From assembly GCF_013315695.1 (NCBI RefSeq), contig NZ_CP054353.1: a stretch of 64,000 bases of DNA; one strand, written 5' to 3'. The notes beneath the pieces are model-generated. The model saw only the letters and a list, made by a program, of their open reading frames with translations, was not told where the DNA came from and ran no database searches. Of this stretch, positions 6,059 to 38,684 are shown piece by piece (position 1 is the stretch's first letter; each line of letters starts with the position of its first letter). Both the position numbers and the translations under genes were made by a program. Source of the stretch: Escherichia coli (GTDB lineage: Bacteria; Pseudomonadota; Gammaproteobacteria; Enterobacterales; Enterobacteriaceae).

Positions 6059-6331
6059 TTCCTATATGACGCTGGCGTATGGTAAGGCCCTGAAAGATGA
6101 GGTTATTGCTCGTATCGCAGCTAAACACAATGCGACTCCGGCACAAGTGATTCTGGCGTGGGCTATGGGGGAAGGTTACTCAGTAATTCCTTCTTCTACT
6201 AAACGTAAAAACCTGGAAAGTAATCTTAAGGCACAAAATTTACAGCTTGATGCCGAAGATAAAAAAGCGATCGCCGCACTGGATTGCAACGACCGCCTGG
6301 TTAGCCCGGAAGGTCTGGCTCCTGAATGGGA

Positions 6332-7246
6332 TTAAGCCTCTCTGACAGCTCCTCCGGGAGCTGTTTTTACATGCTCGCTAAGGAAATCGATAAAAGCCCG
6401 GATGCGTGTACTTACCGCACGGTCGCTGTAATATACGGCACTGAATGGCATTTCCACTGGCAATACTTTATCTGCCATTAACTCCACCAATTCTCCGCGA
6501 GCGATTTCTCTGTCGATCATGTAGTCGGACAAACACGCAATCCCGTTGCCACTCAGGCAAAGCTGTTTCAGTGTTTCCCCACTATTGGATGACAAACCGT
6601 ACTTCACCTCATGTAATTGTCCATCGCTACAGGCTATCGGCCAGGTATTGAGGGAAGCGGGTTCAGTGAATCCCAGGCAAACATGTTGCTTTAAATCGTC
6701 GATCGTTTCTGGCTTCCCGTAGCGGGAAATATAATCGGGGGAGGCGATAATTTTTCGATAACTGTTAAATAACGGCCTGGCACGTAAGCTGGAATCCGTT
6801 AACGTACCGGCGCGTATCGCGACATCCACTTTTCTTTCGATCAAATTAATAATTGTTTCGGAGGAGACTAGTGATAAAGTGACTTCCGGATAGCGTTCAC
6901 GGAAAGGCTTAATCAACGGCATCAGAAAGTGCAGCACCACTGGAGTTGCGGCATCGATGCGCAACAGTCCACGCGGTGTATTACGCGTCTCCATAATTTC
7001 TGATTCTGCCGCTGCCATCTCCTGCAAAATTGACTGTACGCGACGAAAATAACGCTCGCCTTCTTCCGTCAGGCTAAGTTGCCGCGTGGTCCGATTAAGC
7101 AGGCTAACGCCAAGTTTCATCTCCAGCTTTTTCACCGCCCGGCTTACCGCTGAGTTTGCTTGCCCTAATTGTTCCGCTGCCCGGCTAAAGCTGCCGCTTT
7201 CGACGACCGAAACAAAAATGGCGAGTTCTTCCGACGTGGCTTTCAT
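6332..7246 (-). CDS. yafC: LysR-family transcriptional regulator
   Basis: 304 aa; N-terminal HTH ([23 protein letters not shown]) and LysR substrate-binding domain. Confidence 0.9.
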
Positions 7247-35086: not shown

Positions 35087-35521
35087 ATGCGACAAATCAT
35101 CGACACCCTGGCGCAGTTGCAGCGCCTGCGGGATAAATCGGTCAAAGACAAAACCGTCGAGCTGGCAAAGCAAAAACAGATTTGTGCGGGTTATGACAAC
35201 AATATCAAAGCATTAGGCTACCTGGTGGAGAAAACATCTGCGGGCGCGGCAGCGTCGGTGGAATCGCTGAAAAACGTCAGCGACTACAAAGGCACCTTGC
35301 GCAAGGTGATCGCCTGGCAGGAGCAGGAAAAAACGCTGGCTAACATCAAAGCCACGCGAATGCAGAAAAACCTGACGGCGGCGGCGTGCGAAGAGAAAGT
35401 GGTGGCCCTGACGCTGGACGACAAACGCCGCGAGCAGCAAGAAAGTGCCACGGCGAAAGCGCAAAAAGCGGTGGATGACATCGCCGTCCAGTGCTGGCTG
35501 CGGCATAAGTTAGCGGAGTAG
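35087..35521 (+). CDS. lfiJ: Flag-2 export chaperone/stalk protein, FliJ homologue
   Basis: 144 aa coiled-coil protein starting at ATG 35087 right after lfiI stop. Confidence 0.8.
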   Translation: MRQIIDTLAQLQRLRDKSVKDKTVELAKQKQICAGYDNNIKALGYLVEKTSAGAAASVESLKNVSDYKGTLRKVIAWQEQEKTLANIKATRMQKNLTAAACEEKVVALTLDDKRREQQESATAKAQKAVDDIAVQCWLRHKLAE

Positions 35522-35523
35522 CC

Positions 35524-35928
35524 ATGAAAACGGTCATCACCTTCGGCACCTTCGATGTGTTTCATGTCGGTCATCTGCGCCTTTTACAACGCGCCCGCAC
35601 GCTGGGCGAACGGCTGCTGGTCGGCGTATCGTCCGACGCCTTAAATATCGCCAAAAAGGGCAGAGCACCGGTTTACCCTCAGGATGACCGCATGTCGATC
35701 ATCGCCGGGCTGGCGTGCGTGGATGGCGTATTTCTGGAGGAATCGCTGGAGCAGAAAGCGGAGTATCTGCGGGGGTACCGTGCGGATATTTTAGTGATGG
35801 GCGATGACTGGGCAGGAAAGTTTGACAGCTTCGCGTATATTTGTGAGGTAGTGTATTTCCCCCGCACGCCGTCGGTGTCGACGACGGGGATTATTGAGGT
35901 GATTAGGGGTAAATCAGCCACCTACTGA
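35524..35928 (+). CDS. Glycerol-3-phosphate cytidylyltransferase (TagD-like, makes CDP-glycerol)
   Basis: 134 aa MKTVITFGTFDVFHVGHLRLLQRA... with HxGH motif and ...VVYFPRTPSVSTTGIIEVI; start codon 2 nt after lfiJ stop with SD GGAG. Confidence 0.85.
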   Translation: MKTVITFGTFDVFHVGHLRLLQRARTLGERLLVGVSSDALNIAKKGRAPVYPQDDRMSIIAGLACVDGVFLEESLEQKAEYLRGYRADILVMGDDWAGKFDSFAYICEVVYFPRTPSVSTTGIIEVIRGKSATY

Positions 35929-35976
35929 TTTAATTCCCGCAGTGAGAGAAGATGATGCCGTTTGGCTATGTTAAAT

Positions 35977-36079
35977 ATGTTTAAAAAATCGCGTTTTTTC
36001 GACATATCCCCAAAACATGTCGATGGCATAAACGTATTCCAACGACATGTTTAAAAATCGCATTTTATCGACATATCCC
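35977..36079. repeat. Two copies of a ~34-bp imperfect direct repeat plus a 10-bp inverted repeat
   Basis: ATGTTTAAAAAATCGCGTTTTTTCGACATATCCC (35977..36010) and ATGTTTAAAAATCGCATTTTATCGACATATCCC (36047..36079); inverted arms AAACATGTCG 36013..36022 / CGACATGTTT 36043..36052. Confidence 0.7.
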
Positions 36080-38521
36080 TGACGATTCCTTGCCCGCCAA
36101 CGCCTCCACAATCACCATCGTCGCCCGTTCTCCCGCCTTGCCATCCATAAACGCATCGCAATAGTGATGACGAATCTTCGTAAGCCGCGCCTGCACCGCC
36201 CCCCAGTCAAACGCCTCTGACAACAAGTAACGCAACTCTGCCATATCATGAGCCACCGGCAATATTTCGCGGATTTGCTGATCGGCGCTCTCCGGCGTGG
36301 AGTAGCTTTTCTCGCCGTCGAGCAATTCACTCATGCCCGGAAAGTCGAGCAGGATCACCCGCTTATCAACGTGGATAGCATCGAAAATAAAGCCGCTGTT
36401 ATCGGTCAGCACGTAATCGGCCTTTGCCAGCAGCGCCAGCGTGTGACGGGCGGAGTCGGTGCGCTGTTTTAAATGCCTGCGAGCCAGGGCCAGCGATGCA
36501 GCTTCTTCCGGGCGCGAGCAGGTGCCGTGGTGCAGTTTGCAAATCAGGTTCACATCATCGCTTAAGCGCCCCAATTTTTCTGCCCAGTGGGGCAGGGAGC
36601 TTAATGCGCCAAACGTTGGGGCGTAGAGTACGGTGGGTTTACGCTCGTCCAGTTTGATATTTTCCGGCAACGCGCGGTCGAACGTGGCGTTATGCCAGGC
36701 GTCGAAGCGCGGGTTGCCGACCACTATTGCGTTGCTGAGGTGCGCCAGCGCCTGCTGGCTGTAGTGGCTGTAACACAAAATGCGCTGATAAAAACGGTTC
36801 CAGTCGGCGTGGTTCCACGTTTCTTTGGCTAAGCCGTACATGGCGCGAATGTTCAGGGGGGAAAGGCCACTGAGCGCAGGCGTGTGATAGGGGCTGACCA
36901 GGCATTTTACTCGCTGACCGTGTGCCTGCATTTCTGACAGACGCATACCTTTAAGCTGCGGATCGTCGATGTTTTTCAGTGTTTCCAGCATCTCATCCAG
37001 AAACGGTTTAAACACGCGGTCATTGATCACCAGTGTGCAGCTCTGCCCCTGCGCCTGCAGGGCGGTGATGATTGGGCGGTAGAGCGCGTAGTGGAATGAG
37101 GTTTCCATAAAAAAGCCGATGGTATCGGCGATAGGTAATGTAGATGGCTTGGTGGCTACGGGTAACTTATTGAAGTAGTGGTTAATGTTATCAGTCGCTT
37201 TTTTCTCGATATCACTAAAGCCCGGTCGCTGATAACAAAGGCTCGGGTAACAGGCCAGCCATTTGTCGGTGCGCAGCAGCGGCTGCCAGCCGTCTTCCAG
37301 CGAATGCTCATCGTTGTTCATCTGCTGCGCCAGCTGCGGGTAGTAGCGGCGGTTCACCAGATAAGCGCACACTTTGCGGCAGTCCCGCGCGTGCACCAGC
37401 CCAGGCAAACTTTTTAGCATCGTTCCCTGCGAAATTTCGCCGCCGAGGATCATCACCTGCCAGGGAATTTTCGCCAGGCTCGCCAGCAGCGCGTTCAGCA
37501 CCTGAATATGTTTCTCCTGTTTGAGAATAACCGCGTCATCTTCCAGCAGCAGGTAGTTTTGCCAGCCGCGTTGTTGCGCCAGACGCAGTGCCTGCAAGTG
37601 TGATTGCTGGCGGCCCCGTTGACCGTTTTCATTTTCACTGGCGGCAAGGCGGGTGATCTTCTCAGGAGGAATATGCAGCAATGTGAGTTCTTCACGGATC
37701 TGCTGTAAGCGATCCGGGCGTTTATCCAGATTCAGCAGAACGATCTGATCGATCGCCTGATGATGAGTGGCGTTATGCAGACTCAGATAAGCATTGCGGA
37801 GCAGCGGATCGCGGACGATATCCGTAAGCGTCGCGTTTACTGGCGTGCTGGCCCCGAGAATAAAGTCTTTATCAAAGGTGTTGTGGCTGTGCGAGATACA
37901 CAAAATCGTGCGCTCGCCGGGCAGTTGTAGCGGGTTAACGCTGAAATTGTCGGTGAAACTTTTCTCTTCGCCTAAATTGCAATCGTCATCGTAGCGGTGC
38001 TTTTTCAGGTAGTTACGGTGATAGCAAAAGGTGCCGTTGAGGATGTTATGCGGGCCGAAGCTGCGGCTTTGAAAGATGCGATTGATGTGGCTGTACCAGA
38101 TGGGGATCTGGTCGGAACCGGAGATGAGCGCCCGGTTTTTTTGCATCATAGCGATGGTGTAAGAGATTTTATCTGCCGGGTAGTAGTCGTCATCGTCCAT
38201 GCAGAGGATGTATTCGCCGCGCGCCAGTTCGTTGAGCATATTGCGTTTTTTGCCCAGCGGCAGTTTTTCCGGGTGATGGATGTAGCGGATGTTGAAGGCT
38301 TCCGGTGTGCCATTGGTCAGGCGGTCGATGATGTGTTGATGGCTTTGCGGGGAATCGTCGAGGATGATGAGTTCGCGGCGGTCTGCCGGGTAGTCCTGAT
38401 AGCGGTACATATAAAGCAGGTACGGCAGGAATGCGCTGCGGTTCCAGGTTGGCGTGACGACGCTGACGGACGGTTTTTCGCGCTGGGTGGCGAGTGTTTT
38501 GATAATGGTTGGTGTTGGCAT
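36065..38521 (-). CDS. Large multidomain glycosyltransferase: N-terminal GT2 domain, central GT25-like domain, C-terminal CDP-glycerol glycerophosphotransferase (TagB/TagF-like) domain
   Basis: GT2: VSVVTPTWNR...ILDDSP...CMDDDDYY; GT25-like: IVLLNLDKRPDRLQQI...YLLLEDDAVIL; TagF-like: VLYAPTFGALSS...VLTDNSGFIFDA; start set to ATG 38521 (MPTPTII), track start 38593 is GTG inside a repeat. Confidence 0.75.
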   Translation of the reverse strand: MPTPTIIKTLATQREKPSVSVVTPTWNRSAFLPYLLYMYRYQDYPADRRELIILDDSPQSHQHIIDRLTNGTPEAFNIRYIHHPEKLPLGKKRNMLNELARGEYILCMDDDDYYPADKISYTIAMMQKNRALISGSDQIPIWYSHINRIFQSRSFGPHNILNGTFCYHRNYLKKHRYDDDCNLGEEKSFTDNFSVNPLQLPGERTILCISHSHNTFDKDFILGASTPVNATLTDIVRDPLLRNAYLSLHNATHHQAIDQIVLLNLDKRPDRLQQIREELTLLHIPPEKITRLAASENENGQRGRQQSHLQALRLAQQRGWQNYLLLEDDAVILKQEKHIQVLNALLASLAKIPWQVMILGGEISQGTMLKSLPGLVHARDCRKVCAYLVNRRYYPQLAQQMNNDEHSLEDGWQPLLRTDKWLACYPSLCYQRPGFSDIEKKATDNINHYFNKLPVATKPSTLPIADTIGFFMETSFHYALYRPIITALQAQGQSCTLVINDRVFKPFLDEMLETLKNIDDPQLKGMRLSEMQAHGQRVKCLVSPYHTPALSGLSPLNIRAMYGLAKETWNHADWNRFYQRILCYSHYSQQALAHLSNAIVVGNPRFDAWHNATFDRALPENIKLDERKPTVLYAPTFGALSSLPHWAEKLGRLSDDVNLICKLHHGTCSRPEEAASLALARRHLKQRTDSARHTLALLAKADYVLTDNSGFIFDAIHVDKRVILLDFPGMSELLDGEKSYSTPESADQQIREILPVAHDMAELRYLLSEAFDWGAVQARLTKIRHHYCDAFMDGKAGERATMVIVEALAGKESSGICR

Positions 38522-38570
38522 GGTGTTTGGGTGAGTTAATGGGTGAATGTGATGAATGTGCGTGCTGATG

Positions 38571-38684
38571 CCCTCACCCCGACCCTCTCCCACAGGGAGA
38601 GGGAGAAAACCAGCGCCGATTTTAACACCGTGCTCGATCGGTTCCCTCGCCCCTTTGGGGAGAGGGTTAGGGGGAGGGGAAAAG
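38571..38684. repeat. GC-rich composite palindromic intergenic repeat (CCCTCTCCC/GGGAGAGGG and GGTGAGGG-type motifs)
   Basis: Perfect hairpin CCCTCTCCC-aca-GGGAGAGGG at 38583..38603 and CCCTCGCCCCTTTGGGGAGAGGGTTAGGGGGAGGGG at 38644..38679; related copy at 18402..18436. Confidence 0.6.

What the first reader, a model, noticed from the sequence alone, without database searches (positions are those of the whole stretch)
35977..36079. Duplicated 34-bp element and inverted repeat at the convergent junction of the modification genes
Two near-identical copies of ATGTTTAAAAA(A)TCGC(G/A)TTTT(T/A)TCGACATATCCC lie 70 bp apart. The second copy overlaps the last codons and stop of the large glycosyltransferase. 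A 10-bp inverted repeat (AAACATGTCG / CGACATGTTT) lies between them. This could be a bidirectional terminator, a protein-binding site or a footprint of a local duplication that reshaped the 3' end of the gene.
Basis: seen in the sequence. Interest (0 to 1): 0.45.

Follow-up and report, generated by a model that had tools for sequence, protein, structure and literature searches.

The report
Leftover control region of deleted SoFic gene
The duplicated 34-bp element and inverted repeat are real, but they are the leftover upstream control repeats of a SoFic toxin/anti-phage gene that once sat between the two flagellar-modification genes and was later almost entirely deleted, so this is a gene-decay scar and not a terminator or a local duplication.

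Summary
In detail: two 33/34-nt copies start 70 bp apart (35977-36010, 36047-36079), with an inverted repeat between them. The window is the E. coli Flag-2 locus.

The same junction in other genomes explains it. E. coli EC1515, Escherichia sp. E1V33 and Pseudocitrobacter carry an intact 358-aa SoFic-type fic gene between the cytidylyltransferase and glycosyltransferase genes. 2.5 copies of a 70-bp tandem repeat abut its start codon. The window keeps 1.5 of those units plus two dead fic fragments: the last 21 nt, and 30 nt of internal codons. About 107 of ~680 junction-bearing E. coli genomes have this relic, 9 have intact fic, and most have a REP/BIME pair instead.

The unit belongs to a family tied to SoFic genes across Proteobacteria (68 of 72 units are exactly 70 bp). 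Its conserved blocks also occur in the 100-bp Shewanella fragment that dimeric SoFic was shown to bind. The repeats are therefore most likely SoFic autoregulatory operator/promoter units, orphaned here.

Side effects: a lost stop codon lets the glycosyltransferase read 5 codons into the repeat, and the cytidylyltransferase tail differs from the majority allele. It is not a canonical terminator. This is ordinary decay, with a useful by-product: a predicted SoFic operator.

The parts
35524..35928 (+). Glycerol-3-phosphate cytidylyltransferase (TagD-like) gene, 134 aa. Its last codons (...G KSATY*, from ~35910) differ from the majority allele (...G LL*) and overlap the fic stop codon.
   Evidence: ORF; NCBIfam TIGR01518/TIGR00125; allele comparison.
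35922..35942 (-). Dead fragment 1 of fic: the last six codons plus the stop (LRELNQ*).
   Evidence: Window 35500-35942 = L006 2435-2877 at 94.8%, running 21 nt into the fic ORF. Translations.
35943..35972 (-). Dead fragment 2 of fic: internal codons (NIAKRQTASSYL region, C-terminal wHTH domain), with a 7-nt deletion (TGCCGTC) that is polymorphic among strains.
   Evidence: Local alignment to L006 2952-2988, 1 mismatch plus a 7-nt gap. Strains 118UI, A10, NRZ14408 and JNEC-KY178 keep the 7 nt.
35977..36010 (-). 34-mer copy 1. In the native fic-sense (minus) orientation it reads GGGATATGTCGAAAAAACGCGATTTTTTAAACAT: a half-site followed by the AT-rich leader that natively precedes the fic ATG.
36011..36046 (-). 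The 36-nt remainder of the one complete 70-bp unit. It holds the inverted half-site ATGTCGA (36017-36023) and the conserved ATAAAC block.
   Evidence: Unit alignments.
36047..36079 (-). 34-mer copy 2, the terminal half-unit of the array. Native arrays always end with this half-unit.
   Evidence: the shared module ends at the terminal 34-mer.
35999..36023 (.). Family-conserved palindrome TCGACAT-N11-ATGTCGA, the predicted SoFic operator core.
   Evidence: Conservation profile. The same half-sites occur in the S. oneidensis fragment bound by SoFic and at -26 in protein-selected relatives.
36013..36052 (.). As RNA it folds at -16.9 (+) and -16.7 (-) kcal/mol.
   Evidence: (I2).
36065..36082 (-). 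Five extra glycosyltransferase codons plus the stop (S-G-I-C-R-*). They arise because the codon at 36080-36082 is TCA here and TAA in Pseudocitrobacter. The tail length varies among E. coli strains.
36065..38593 (-). Large GT2-family glycosyltransferase. The longest ORF is 842 aa; PGAP annotates 818 aa.

Best explanation
The element is a relic of a SoFic cassette. A module made of a SoFic-type fic gene (a protein adenylyltransferase, toxin and anti-phage defence protein with a C-terminal winged-helix domain) and its upstream array of 70-bp tandem repeats was once present at this point of Flag-2 variable region 1, with fic on the minus strand. In the window's lineage two deletions (about 74 nt and about 1 kb) removed nearly all of fic and one repeat unit. 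What remains is 21 nt plus 30 nt of fic coding sequence and 1.5 repeat units. In the native state each unit carries the palindrome ATCGACAT-N9-11-ATGTCGAT, then ATAAAA, then an AT-rich leader (TTTTTTAAACAT) that in the proximal unit ends at the fic ATG. The units are most likely operator/promoter modules through which dimeric SoFic binds its own upstream DNA and represses itself, as was shown for the related Fic-HTH protein CccR. Here, with no fic gene, the repeats are orphan sites. Their demonstrable effects are structural. They replace the REP/BIME pair that most strains have at this junction, and after loss of a stop codon they supply the last 5 codons and the stop of the glycosyltransferase. 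The cytidylyltransferase tail is also changed, by 12 nt of filler and the fic 3' end. Shown here: the homology, the fic fragments, the allele series, the family distribution and the motif match to SoFic-bound DNA. Inferred: that SoFic binds these particular half-sites, that binding represses, and that the relic is now functionless.
For: (1) Intact alleles exist at the same junction. In EC1515 and AHM8C212RI the order is fliJ, cytidylyltransferase, fic (minus strand), 2.5 repeat units, glycosyltransferase. The same order is found in Pseudocitrobacter faecalis, a Pseudocitrobacter MAG and Escherichia sp. E1V33.
(2) Segment-by-segment homology of the window to EC1515: 35500-35942 at 94.8%, including the fic stop and last 6 codons; 35943-35972 matches internal fic codons; 35974-36088 matches repeat units 2 to 2.5 at 87%; 36097-36400 matches the glycosyltransferase at 88%.
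(3) Pseudocitrobacter L015 is collinear with window 35974-36400 in one 428-nt alignment at 89.3% with fic intact. It has TAA where the window has TCA.
(4) Family evidence: a pattern scan of one genome per species found 53 loci. In 28 of them a SoFic gene adjoins the repeat, in the same orientation in all but one, with its start codon abutting the repeat or one to two units away. 68 of 72 units are exactly 70 bp. TRF reports arrays of 7.4 and 9.4 copies. Homology shared between genera runs exactly from the fic stop codon to the end of the terminal 34-mer.
(5) Protein identity: NCBIfam SoFic equivalog at 589.6 bits (cutoff 550); Pfam Fic_N + Fic + SoFic-like_C; PADLOC SoFic at 403 bits; PDB 9vjc at 706 bits and SoFic 3EQX at 497 bits over the full length.
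(6) Function of the native region: dimeric SoFic specifically binds the 100 bp next to its start codon (bioRxiv 10.64898/2026.07.09.737422). That fragment's sequence carries ATCGACAT, ATGTCGATAAAA and TTTTTTTAAAC|ATG. It aligns to the window relic with score 27 against 11.2 +/- 2.0 for shuffles (maximum 19), with TGTCGA at -27 in Shewanella and -28 in EC1515. Protein-selected relatives on Salmonella, Martelella and Rhizobium plasmids have TGTCGA at -26. CccR autorepresses through a palindrome over its -35/-10 boxes (PMC9755527).
(7) Relic status: there is no Fic gene in the window and no second copy of the repeat in the source genome (places = 1). The dead fic fragments are as conserved (pi 0.023) as the repeats (0.018), and the glycosyltransferase tail length is polymorphic.
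Against: No footprint or mutational mapping shows that SoFic contacts the ATCGACAT/ATGTCGAT half-sites; binding is mapped only to a 100-bp fragment, in Shewanella. The promoter has not been mapped. The sigma-70-like match differs between enterics (TCGACA-N17-GATAAA, no T at -7) and Shewanella (TCGACA-N18-TATTAT), both read by eye. The closest intact alleles are only 87-89% identical to the relic, so the direct ancestor was not found. Orphan arrays are frequent: about 20 of the 53 pattern-selected loci have no fic, and some sit in a flank conserved across genera. That could mean the repeats have a role of their own. The relic is about 3 times less diverse than its flanks; I attribute this to a recent single origin, but constraint is not excluded. 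Whether the source genome has a SoFic gene without repeats elsewhere was not checked.
Confidence: 0.85

Rival explanations
1. The relic has been co-opted as an RNA 3'-end element for the two convergent transcripts, either as a weak bidirectional terminator or as a protective 3' hairpin. In that case it would functionally replace the REP/BIME pair found at this junction in most strains.
For: The central hairpin folds at -16.9 kcal/mol on the plus strand (z -4.4) and -16.7 on the minus strand (z -3.5). That is as stable as the REP hairpins of the majority allele, which range from -11.1 to -15.7. The whole 162-nt region folds better than shuffles (z -2.84 and -1.94). The window's version of this hairpin (16 of 18 bp) pairs better, by my own reading, than the corresponding sequence in the intact alleles EC1515 and L015.
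Against: The terminator scan finds nothing in 35929-36064. The stems are AU-rich with two mismatches. On the plus strand the hairpin is followed by AAAAAUCGCA, and on the minus strand by only UGGGG. The complementarity is a by-product of the operator palindromes that every unit of the family has. The minus-strand hairpin lies downstream of the glycosyltransferase stop, but the plus-strand hairpin lies about 85 nt past the cytidylyltransferase stop.
Confidence: 0.15
2. The orphan units are still active DNA sites in this strain. They could be unrepressed fic promoters firing leftwards (minus strand) as antisense RNA into the cytidylyltransferase/fliJ operon. Or they could be binding sites for a SoFic-like or other regulator encoded elsewhere.
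For: For CccR, destroying the palindrome strongly derepresses the promoter (PMC9755527). By analogy, an operator/promoter without its repressor would be constitutively on. Copy 1 keeps TCGACA-N17-GAAAAA and the leader sequence. Orphan arrays persist in many genomes, and the relic has low diversity.
Against: The promoter is unmapped. In copy 1 the -10-like hexamer is degraded (GAAAAA against the family's GATAAA), and copy 2 has no -35-like box because that position is now glycosyltransferase coding DNA (sequence reading). No other copy of the repeat, and so probably no cognate SoFic, is found in the source genome. The dead fic fragments are equally conserved, which argues against selection specific to the repeats.
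Confidence: 0.1
3. A local tandem duplication arose in place at the glycosyltransferase 3' end, independently of any fic gene.
For: There are two direct copies 70 bp apart, and the second overlaps the gene's last codons.
Against: The same two copies, with the same 70-bp spacing, exist upstream of intact fic genes at this junction in other genomes and in unrelated contexts across genera. The duplication therefore predates the relic and belongs to the cassette. The overlap with the gene end comes from a point change, TAA to TCA.
Confidence: 0.03
4. The element is an autonomous small mobile repeat (MITE-like or REP-like) that inserted at the junction.
For: It is about 110 bp long, contains inverted repeats, occurs in many genomes and in several contexts, and sits where other strains have a REP/BIME pair.
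Against: It has no terminal inverted repeats bounding the element and no target-site duplication. Copies are tandem, not dispersed singly: '8 places per genome' is a single array. Copies are tied to a fic start codon or to fic stubs. In the window the element is contiguous with fic fragments. It has no similarity to the REP consensus present in the majority allele. Rfam finds nothing.
Confidence: 0.02

Closest known systems
Autoregulatory operator of the Fic-HTH protein CccR (Yersinia pseudotuberculosis; PMC9755527)
   Same: A Fic-domain toxin with a C-terminal HTH domain binds, as a dimer, a palindrome in its own promoter and represses itself. Here each unit also carries a conserved palindrome immediately upstream of a Fic-wHTH gene.
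   Different: The half-site is different: AGATAATCAT-N26-ATGATAATCT for CccR, ATCGACAT-N9-11-ATGTCGAT here. CccR is only distantly related to SoFic (29% identity over 45% coverage, as stated in that paper). CccR has a single operator, not a 70-bp tandem array. In the window the gene itself is gone.
SoFic (mloA, SO_4266) upstream region of Shewanella oneidensis, bound by dimeric SoFic (bioRxiv 10.64898/2026.07.09.737422)
   Same: The proteins are orthologous: the EC1515 Fic scores ~497 bits against PDB 3EQX over its full length. The bound 100-bp fragment contains the same blocks at the same distance from the ATG.
   Different: In Shewanella the palindrome spacer is about 21 nt, one helical turn longer than the 11 nt here, and there is no regular 70-bp array. 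The binding motif was not mapped in that study. The window holds only a 1.5-unit orphan.
SoFic anti-phage defence system / EcSofic toxin with AS1 antitoxin (PADLOC SoFic; PMC12249575)
   Same: The deleted gene is this protein family (PADLOC SoFic at 403 bits; PDB 9vjc at 706 bits).
   Different: That paper describes a downstream 47-aa antitoxin gene and says nothing about upstream repeats. In the Flag-2 cassette the conserved module ends at the fic stop codon, and the fic 3' end overlaps the cytidylyltransferase gene, so no AS1 gene can lie directly downstream of it.
REP/BIME elements of E. coli
   Same: They occupy this very junction in most E. coli Flag-2 loci and form hairpins at the 3' ends of convergent genes.
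   Different: The sequence is unrelated. REPs are GC-rich, about 35-bp palindromic units dispersed genome-wide. The element here is AT-rich, has a 70-bp period and is linked to fic.
Iterated protein-binding arrays such as sopC of F plasmid (12 x 43-bp repeats, each with an inverted repeat), recalled from general knowledge
   Same: Tandem units of fixed length, each carrying a short palindrome that a dimeric DNA-binding protein could bind.
   Different: No partition genes are adjacent. The array abuts the start codon of a toxin gene, and the unit includes that gene's leader. This is a functional analogy only.

Membership tests
SoFic upstream operator/promoter repeat (family defined here) | Sequence homology to the 70-bp unit consensus ATGTTTAAAAAA-N5-TTTTATCGACATAT-N6-AACATGTCGATG-N2-ATAAACATGT | tested here: met
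   The window units align with units from 34 loci. They are 87-89% identical to the arrays of intact Flag-2 fic alleles.
SoFic upstream operator/promoter repeat (family defined here) | Lies immediately upstream of a SoFic-type fic start codon, in divergent orientation to the ATGTTTAAAAAA strand | tested here: not met
   There is no intact fic in the window. Only 21-nt and 30-nt fic fragments lie beside the repeats. The feature is met in the homologous alleles L006, L007, L015, L018 and L046, so the window copy is an orphaned member.
SoFic upstream operator/promoter repeat (family defined here) | Bound by dimeric SoFic | not testable with these tools
   Indirect evidence only: the S. oneidensis fragment F1, bound in vitro, contains the same blocks.
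Intrinsic (Rho-independent) terminator | GC-rich stem-loop followed directly by a run of U | tested here: not met
   The scan finds no site in 35929-36064. The hairpins are AU-rich, and the sequence after the stem is AAAAAUCG (+) or UGGGG (-).
REP/BIME | Match to the REP consensus (GCCGGATGCGGCG...CTTATCCGGCCTAC) and genome-wide dispersal | tested here: not met
   The REP pair is present in the majority allele and in EC1515, but it does not align with the element.
MITE | Terminal inverted repeats, target-site duplication, solitary dispersed copies | tested here: not met
   Copies are tandem and linked to fic. The module's edges are a stop codon and a half-unit, not inverted termini.
CRISPR array | Conserved repeats separated by unique spacers | tested here: not met
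   The 36-nt stretches between the 34-mers are themselves conserved among units and among genomes.
Type III toxin-antitoxin RNA repeats (ToxI-like) | Tandem RNA repeats upstream of an endoribonuclease toxin gene, separated from it by a terminator | tested here: not met
   The adjacent gene is an adenylyltransferase, not an RNase. There is no terminator between the array and the gene, and the proximal unit runs into the start codon. Whether the array is transcribed was not tested.
Known RNA families (Rfam 15) | Covariance-model match at or near the gathering score | tested here: not met
   The best hits score 10-16 bits against gathering scores of 55-90.
SoFic protein family (for the deleted gene) | Full-length match above the curated cutoff, with Fic_N + Fic + SoFic-like_C architecture | tested here: met
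   Tested on the intact allele EC1515: NF046030 at 589.6 bits (cutoff 550), Pfam domains, PADLOC, PDB. The window's fragments translate to NIAKR... and LRELNQ*, matching its C-terminal domain.

The most novel reading that the evidence does not exclude
The 70-bp units are self-contained operator-promoter-leader modules, and their copy number (1.5 to about 10) tunes or buffers expression of the SoFic toxin/defence protein, for instance through cooperative binding or titration of the repressor. Orphan arrays left after fic decay, like the one in the window, would then not be inert. They would persist because they act as constitutive promoters making antisense RNA (here into the Flag-2 export/glycosylation operon), as decoy sites, or as 3' hairpins that took over the role of the lost BIME.
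Probability: 0.12. Interest if true: 0.55.

Novelty: new member of a known kind. Interest (0 to 1): 0.3.

Why it matters
For this window the result is mainly a clean-up. A puzzling repeat at a gene junction turns out to be a scar from a deleted defence/toxin gene. It also explains why the C-terminal tails of two flagellin-modification enzymes differ between E. coli lineages. It adds SoFic to the cargo recorded for Flag-2 variable region 1, a known integration hotspot, and gives an allele series at one site: BIME only, intact cassette, relic.

The more useful by-product is a testable prediction for Fic biology. The operator of SoFic-type enzymes should be ATCGACAT-N(11 or 21)-ATGTCGAT, placed so that TGTCGA sits 26-28 nt before the start codon. 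In many Enterobacterales it is multiplied as exact 70-bp tandem units. The only published binding data narrow the site to 100 bp, so this motif could be used directly to design EMSA or footprint probes and to find SoFic relics in genomes.

Tried and rejected
- Rfam scan of 35800-36250 at E<=10: only noise.
- TRF on the window: no call, because only 1.5 units remain.
- Promoter/terminator consensus scan: nothing inside the intergenic region.
- Sigma-28 (FliA/LafS-type) promoter, suggested by GTCGATAA on the minus strand: rejected by reading the sequence, since there is no TAAA-type -35 box at the required spacing in either copy.
- DnaA box (TTATCGACA against TTATCCACA): one mismatch in one copy and two in the other, with no supporting context. 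Dropped.
- CRISPR-like reading (34-nt repeat plus 36-nt spacer): rejected because the 'spacers' are conserved.
- MITE or REP reading: rejected.
- ToxI-like RNA antitoxin: rejected on gene family and layout.
- BLAST with the EC1515 cassette was swamped by REP matches, so only the '>=80% coverage' count (9 genomes) is usable.
- I tried to assign a sigma-70 promoter inside the unit. The enteric candidate (TCGACA-N17-GATAAA) and the Shewanella candidate (TCGACA-N18-TATTAT) are not equivalent, so the promoter position is left open.
- Covariation in the palindrome was not pursued, because symmetric change is expected both for an RNA hairpin and for a dimeric protein site and so does not discriminate between them.
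- Literature searches found no description of an operator motif or repeat array for SoFic, and no mention of Fic in the main text of the 2020 Flag-2 comparative paper (PMC6993521). The library is limited, so this is weak evidence of novelty.

Full report
**1. Observation**

The window is the E. coli Flag-2 (lateral flagella) locus. It is 100% identical to strain MSB1_4I over the region tested. The finding lies in the 136-bp gap between two convergent genes:
- a TagD-like glycerol-3-phosphate cytidylyltransferase gene (35524-35928, plus strand);
- a large GT2 glycosyltransferase gene (36065-38593, minus strand).

The two copies are at 35977-36010 and 36047-36079. They start 70 nt apart and differ by two mismatches and one indel. 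Copy 2 overlaps the last four sense codons and the stop of the glycosyltransferase. A match this good is not expected by chance (0.00 in shuffles).

**2. The junction is polymorphic, which explains the element**

BLAST against 5,426 complete E. coli genomes shows about 680 that hold this gene junction. Only 107 have the window's version of the intergenic DNA. Most have an unrelated sequence there, a classic REP/BIME pair, along with different last codons in both genes.

Nine genomes have a third allele. In strains EC1515 and AHM8C212RI a complete 358-aa fic gene lies on the minus strand between the two genes. Its stop codon overlaps the cytidylyltransferase stop. Its start codon abuts 2.5 copies of the same repeat (CAT|ATGTTTAAAAAATCGCG...). 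The same arrangement occurs in Pseudocitrobacter faecalis, a Pseudocitrobacter MAG and Escherichia sp. E1V33.

**3. The window allele is a deletion derivative**

Homology to EC1515, piece by piece:
- Window 35500-35942 matches at 94.8% and runs 21 nt into fic, covering codons LRELNQ and the stop.
- Window 35943-35972 matches internal fic codons (NIAKRQTASSYL) with one mismatch and a 7-nt gap. Several other remnant-type strains still carry those 7 nt.
- Window 35974-36088 matches repeat units 2 to 2.5 at 87%.
- Window 36097 onward matches the glycosyltransferase.

Two fragments of a coding sequence beside the repeats can only be explained by loss of a gene that was once there. Insertion of a gene into a pre-existing repeat would not leave them.

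Pseudocitrobacter faecalis (L015) shows the right-hand side in its earlier state. The last 34-mer runs straight into the glycosyltransferase 3' end, in one 428-nt alignment at 89.3%. That gene stops at TAA just outside the repeat (...VEALVGRKP*). The window has TCA at that codon and reads on for five codons (SGICR*) into the repeat. Among ten remnant-type E. coli alleles the tail ends at three different places, so it is unlikely to matter.

**4. What the repeat is in its native state**

In about 280 E. coli genomes (including O104:H4 and NCTC86) the same unit forms an array of about 8.5 units on a MobH-relaxase island, between an HTH gene and another SoFic-type fic gene.

A scan of one genome per species with the core pattern gave 53 loci, mostly Enterobacterales:
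- In 28 loci a SoFic homologue adjoins the repeat, in the same orientation in all but one. Its start codon touches the repeat or lies exactly one or two units away.
- A few loci carry only N-terminal fic stubs.
- About 20 loci carry no fic at all, so orphaning as in the window is recurrent.

Unit length is tightly fixed: 68 of 72 complete units are exactly 70 bp. The conserved blocks are ATGTTTAAAAAA, TTTTATCGACATAT, AACATGTCGATG and ATAAACATGT. Between genera, nucleotide homology starts at the fic stop codon and ends at the terminal 34-mer. 'fic plus array' is therefore a discrete module.

**5. Likely mechanism**

The gene is a true SoFic. It exceeds the NCBIfam equivalog cutoff, has the Fic_N, Fic and SoFic-like C-terminal winged-helix domains, hits the PADLOC SoFic model, and gives full-length matches to the solved E. 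coli and Shewanella structures.

What is known about these proteins:
- SoFic is a toxin and anti-phage defence protein that acts as a dimer (PMC12249575).
- The related Fic-HTH protein CccR represses itself through a palindrome over its -35/-10 boxes (PMC9755527).

The preprint's supplement gives the bound Shewanella sequence. It ends ...GAATCGACATAAGC...TATTATGTCGATAAAAGAAGGTTTTTTTAAAC|ATG. These are the same blocks as the enterobacterial unit read on the fic-sense strand. TGTCGA lies at -27 in Shewanella and -28 in EC1515, and the alignment with the window relic is far above shuffled controls (27 against 11.2 +/- 2.0).

SoFic relatives chosen by protein alone show the same thing. Copies on Salmonella, Martelella and Rhizobium plasmids (56-74% aa identity) have TGTCGA at -26 plus further half-sites. 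More distant viral-contig relatives have a different palindrome (ACCTTTA/TAAAGGT), once as an exact 70-bp duplication. That is what one expects if an operator co-evolves with its DNA-binding domain.

I conclude that the units are SoFic operator/promoter/leader modules. Binding to these particular half-sites, and repression, are inferred and not shown.

**6. What the relic does now**

There is no fic in the window and no second copy of the repeat in the source genome. The sites are orphaned.

The terminator idea fails the canonical test. The central hairpin is, however, as stable as the REP hairpins it replaced: -16.9 and -16.7 kcal/mol against -11 to -15.7. A role as a 3' RNA hairpin therefore stays open at low probability.

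The relic is less diverse (pi about 0.02) than the flanking genes (about 0.06). The dead fic fragments are just as conserved as the repeats, which points to a recent single origin and not to selection on the repeats.

**7. Comparison with known systems, and novelty**

The closest known systems are the CccR operator and the SoFic promoter-binding result. The element works like them in origin, but it differs in three ways: the half-site sequence, the 70-bp tandem multiplication, and (in the window) the absence of its gene.

It is not a terminator, REP/BIME, MITE, CRISPR array, ToxI-like array or Rfam family (see the membership rows).

No paper in the searchable library describes the SoFic operator motif or the arrays. 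The main text of the 2020 Flag-2 comparative paper I read (PMC6993521) describes variable region 1 as an integration hotspot carrying TagD and GT2 genes, and does not mention Fic.

**8. Verdict**

The thing itself is an ordinary gene-decay scar of a known kind of cassette. Interest is modest (0.3). The main value is a clean explanation of the junction and a concrete operator prediction for SoFic-type Fic enzymes.

Noticed in passing
L004 697-775 (E. coli E2863); also L006 4226-4322: Most E. coli Flag-2 loci have a REP/BIME pair (two inverted REP units) at the cytidylyltransferase/glycosyltransferase junction. EC1515 has both the fic cassette and the BIME. The window allele and Pseudocitrobacter L015 lack the BIME.
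   Followed up: partly
L007 4216-4424 and L046 (reverse-complement coordinates 6102-6395): In AHM8C212RI and Escherichia sp. E1V33 the fic cassette is followed by a second, internally deleted cytidylyltransferase pseudogene. It is 80-90% identical to the intact copy. In L007 two hypothetical genes follow before the glycosyltransferase. This suggests the cassette arrived by recombination with a diverged Flag-2 allele and not by a clean insertion.
   Followed up: partly
L002 1572-2091; L057 1497-2157: The long arrays on the MobH island (E. coli, Citrobacter sp. 18056) have a 140-bp super-period with 89-95% matches. Two unit types alternate, so recent expansion was by double units.
   Followed up: no
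L063-L067, upstream of position 2501; L064 2323-2454: SoFic relatives on viral contigs (~50% aa identity) have upstream palindromes built on ACCTTTA/TAAAGGT in place of TCGACA/TGTCGA. In L064 there is an exact 70-bp x 1.9 tandem repeat: the same period with a different half-site.
   Followed up: partly
L013, L033, L043, L050, L053 (Citrobacter, Salmonella arizonae and diarizonae, Atlantibacter): Orphan two-unit arrays without fic share one conserved left flank (a 383-aa ORF) across genera. In L013 the array lies next to hipBA-like genes. Such long persistence of orphan arrays is not explained by simple decay.
   Followed up: no
window 35524-35921 and 36080-36700, against 35922-36079: The Flag-2 VR1 modification genes are unusually diverse among E. 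coli strains (pi about 0.056-0.063 in 10 alleles), about three times the diversity of the intergenic relic.
   Followed up: partly
L015, L018 (Pseudocitrobacter): In Pseudocitrobacter the Flag-2 FliJ, cytidylyltransferase and glycosyltransferase are 90-99% identical in protein to those of E. coli. This suggests recent exchange of the locus, or of VR1, between genera.
   Followed up: no
window 38522-38593: The longest glycosyltransferase ORF starts at GTG 38593 (842 aa). RefSeq annotates a start 24 codons downstream (818 aa) in the identical strain.
   Followed up: no
L002 2132-2428; L057 2200-2493; L013 3081-3383: A HipB/XRE-like HTH gene (98 aa) flanks the far end of the long island arrays and recurs near an orphan array. 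It might also act on the repeats.
   Followed up: no
L025 3404-3442; L030 2457-2570: On a Pseudomonas plasmid and in the Enterobacter cancerogenus chromosome, the repeat is attached to a stub holding only the first ~40 fic codons. These are independent fic decay events that again spare the upstream repeat.
   Followed up: partly
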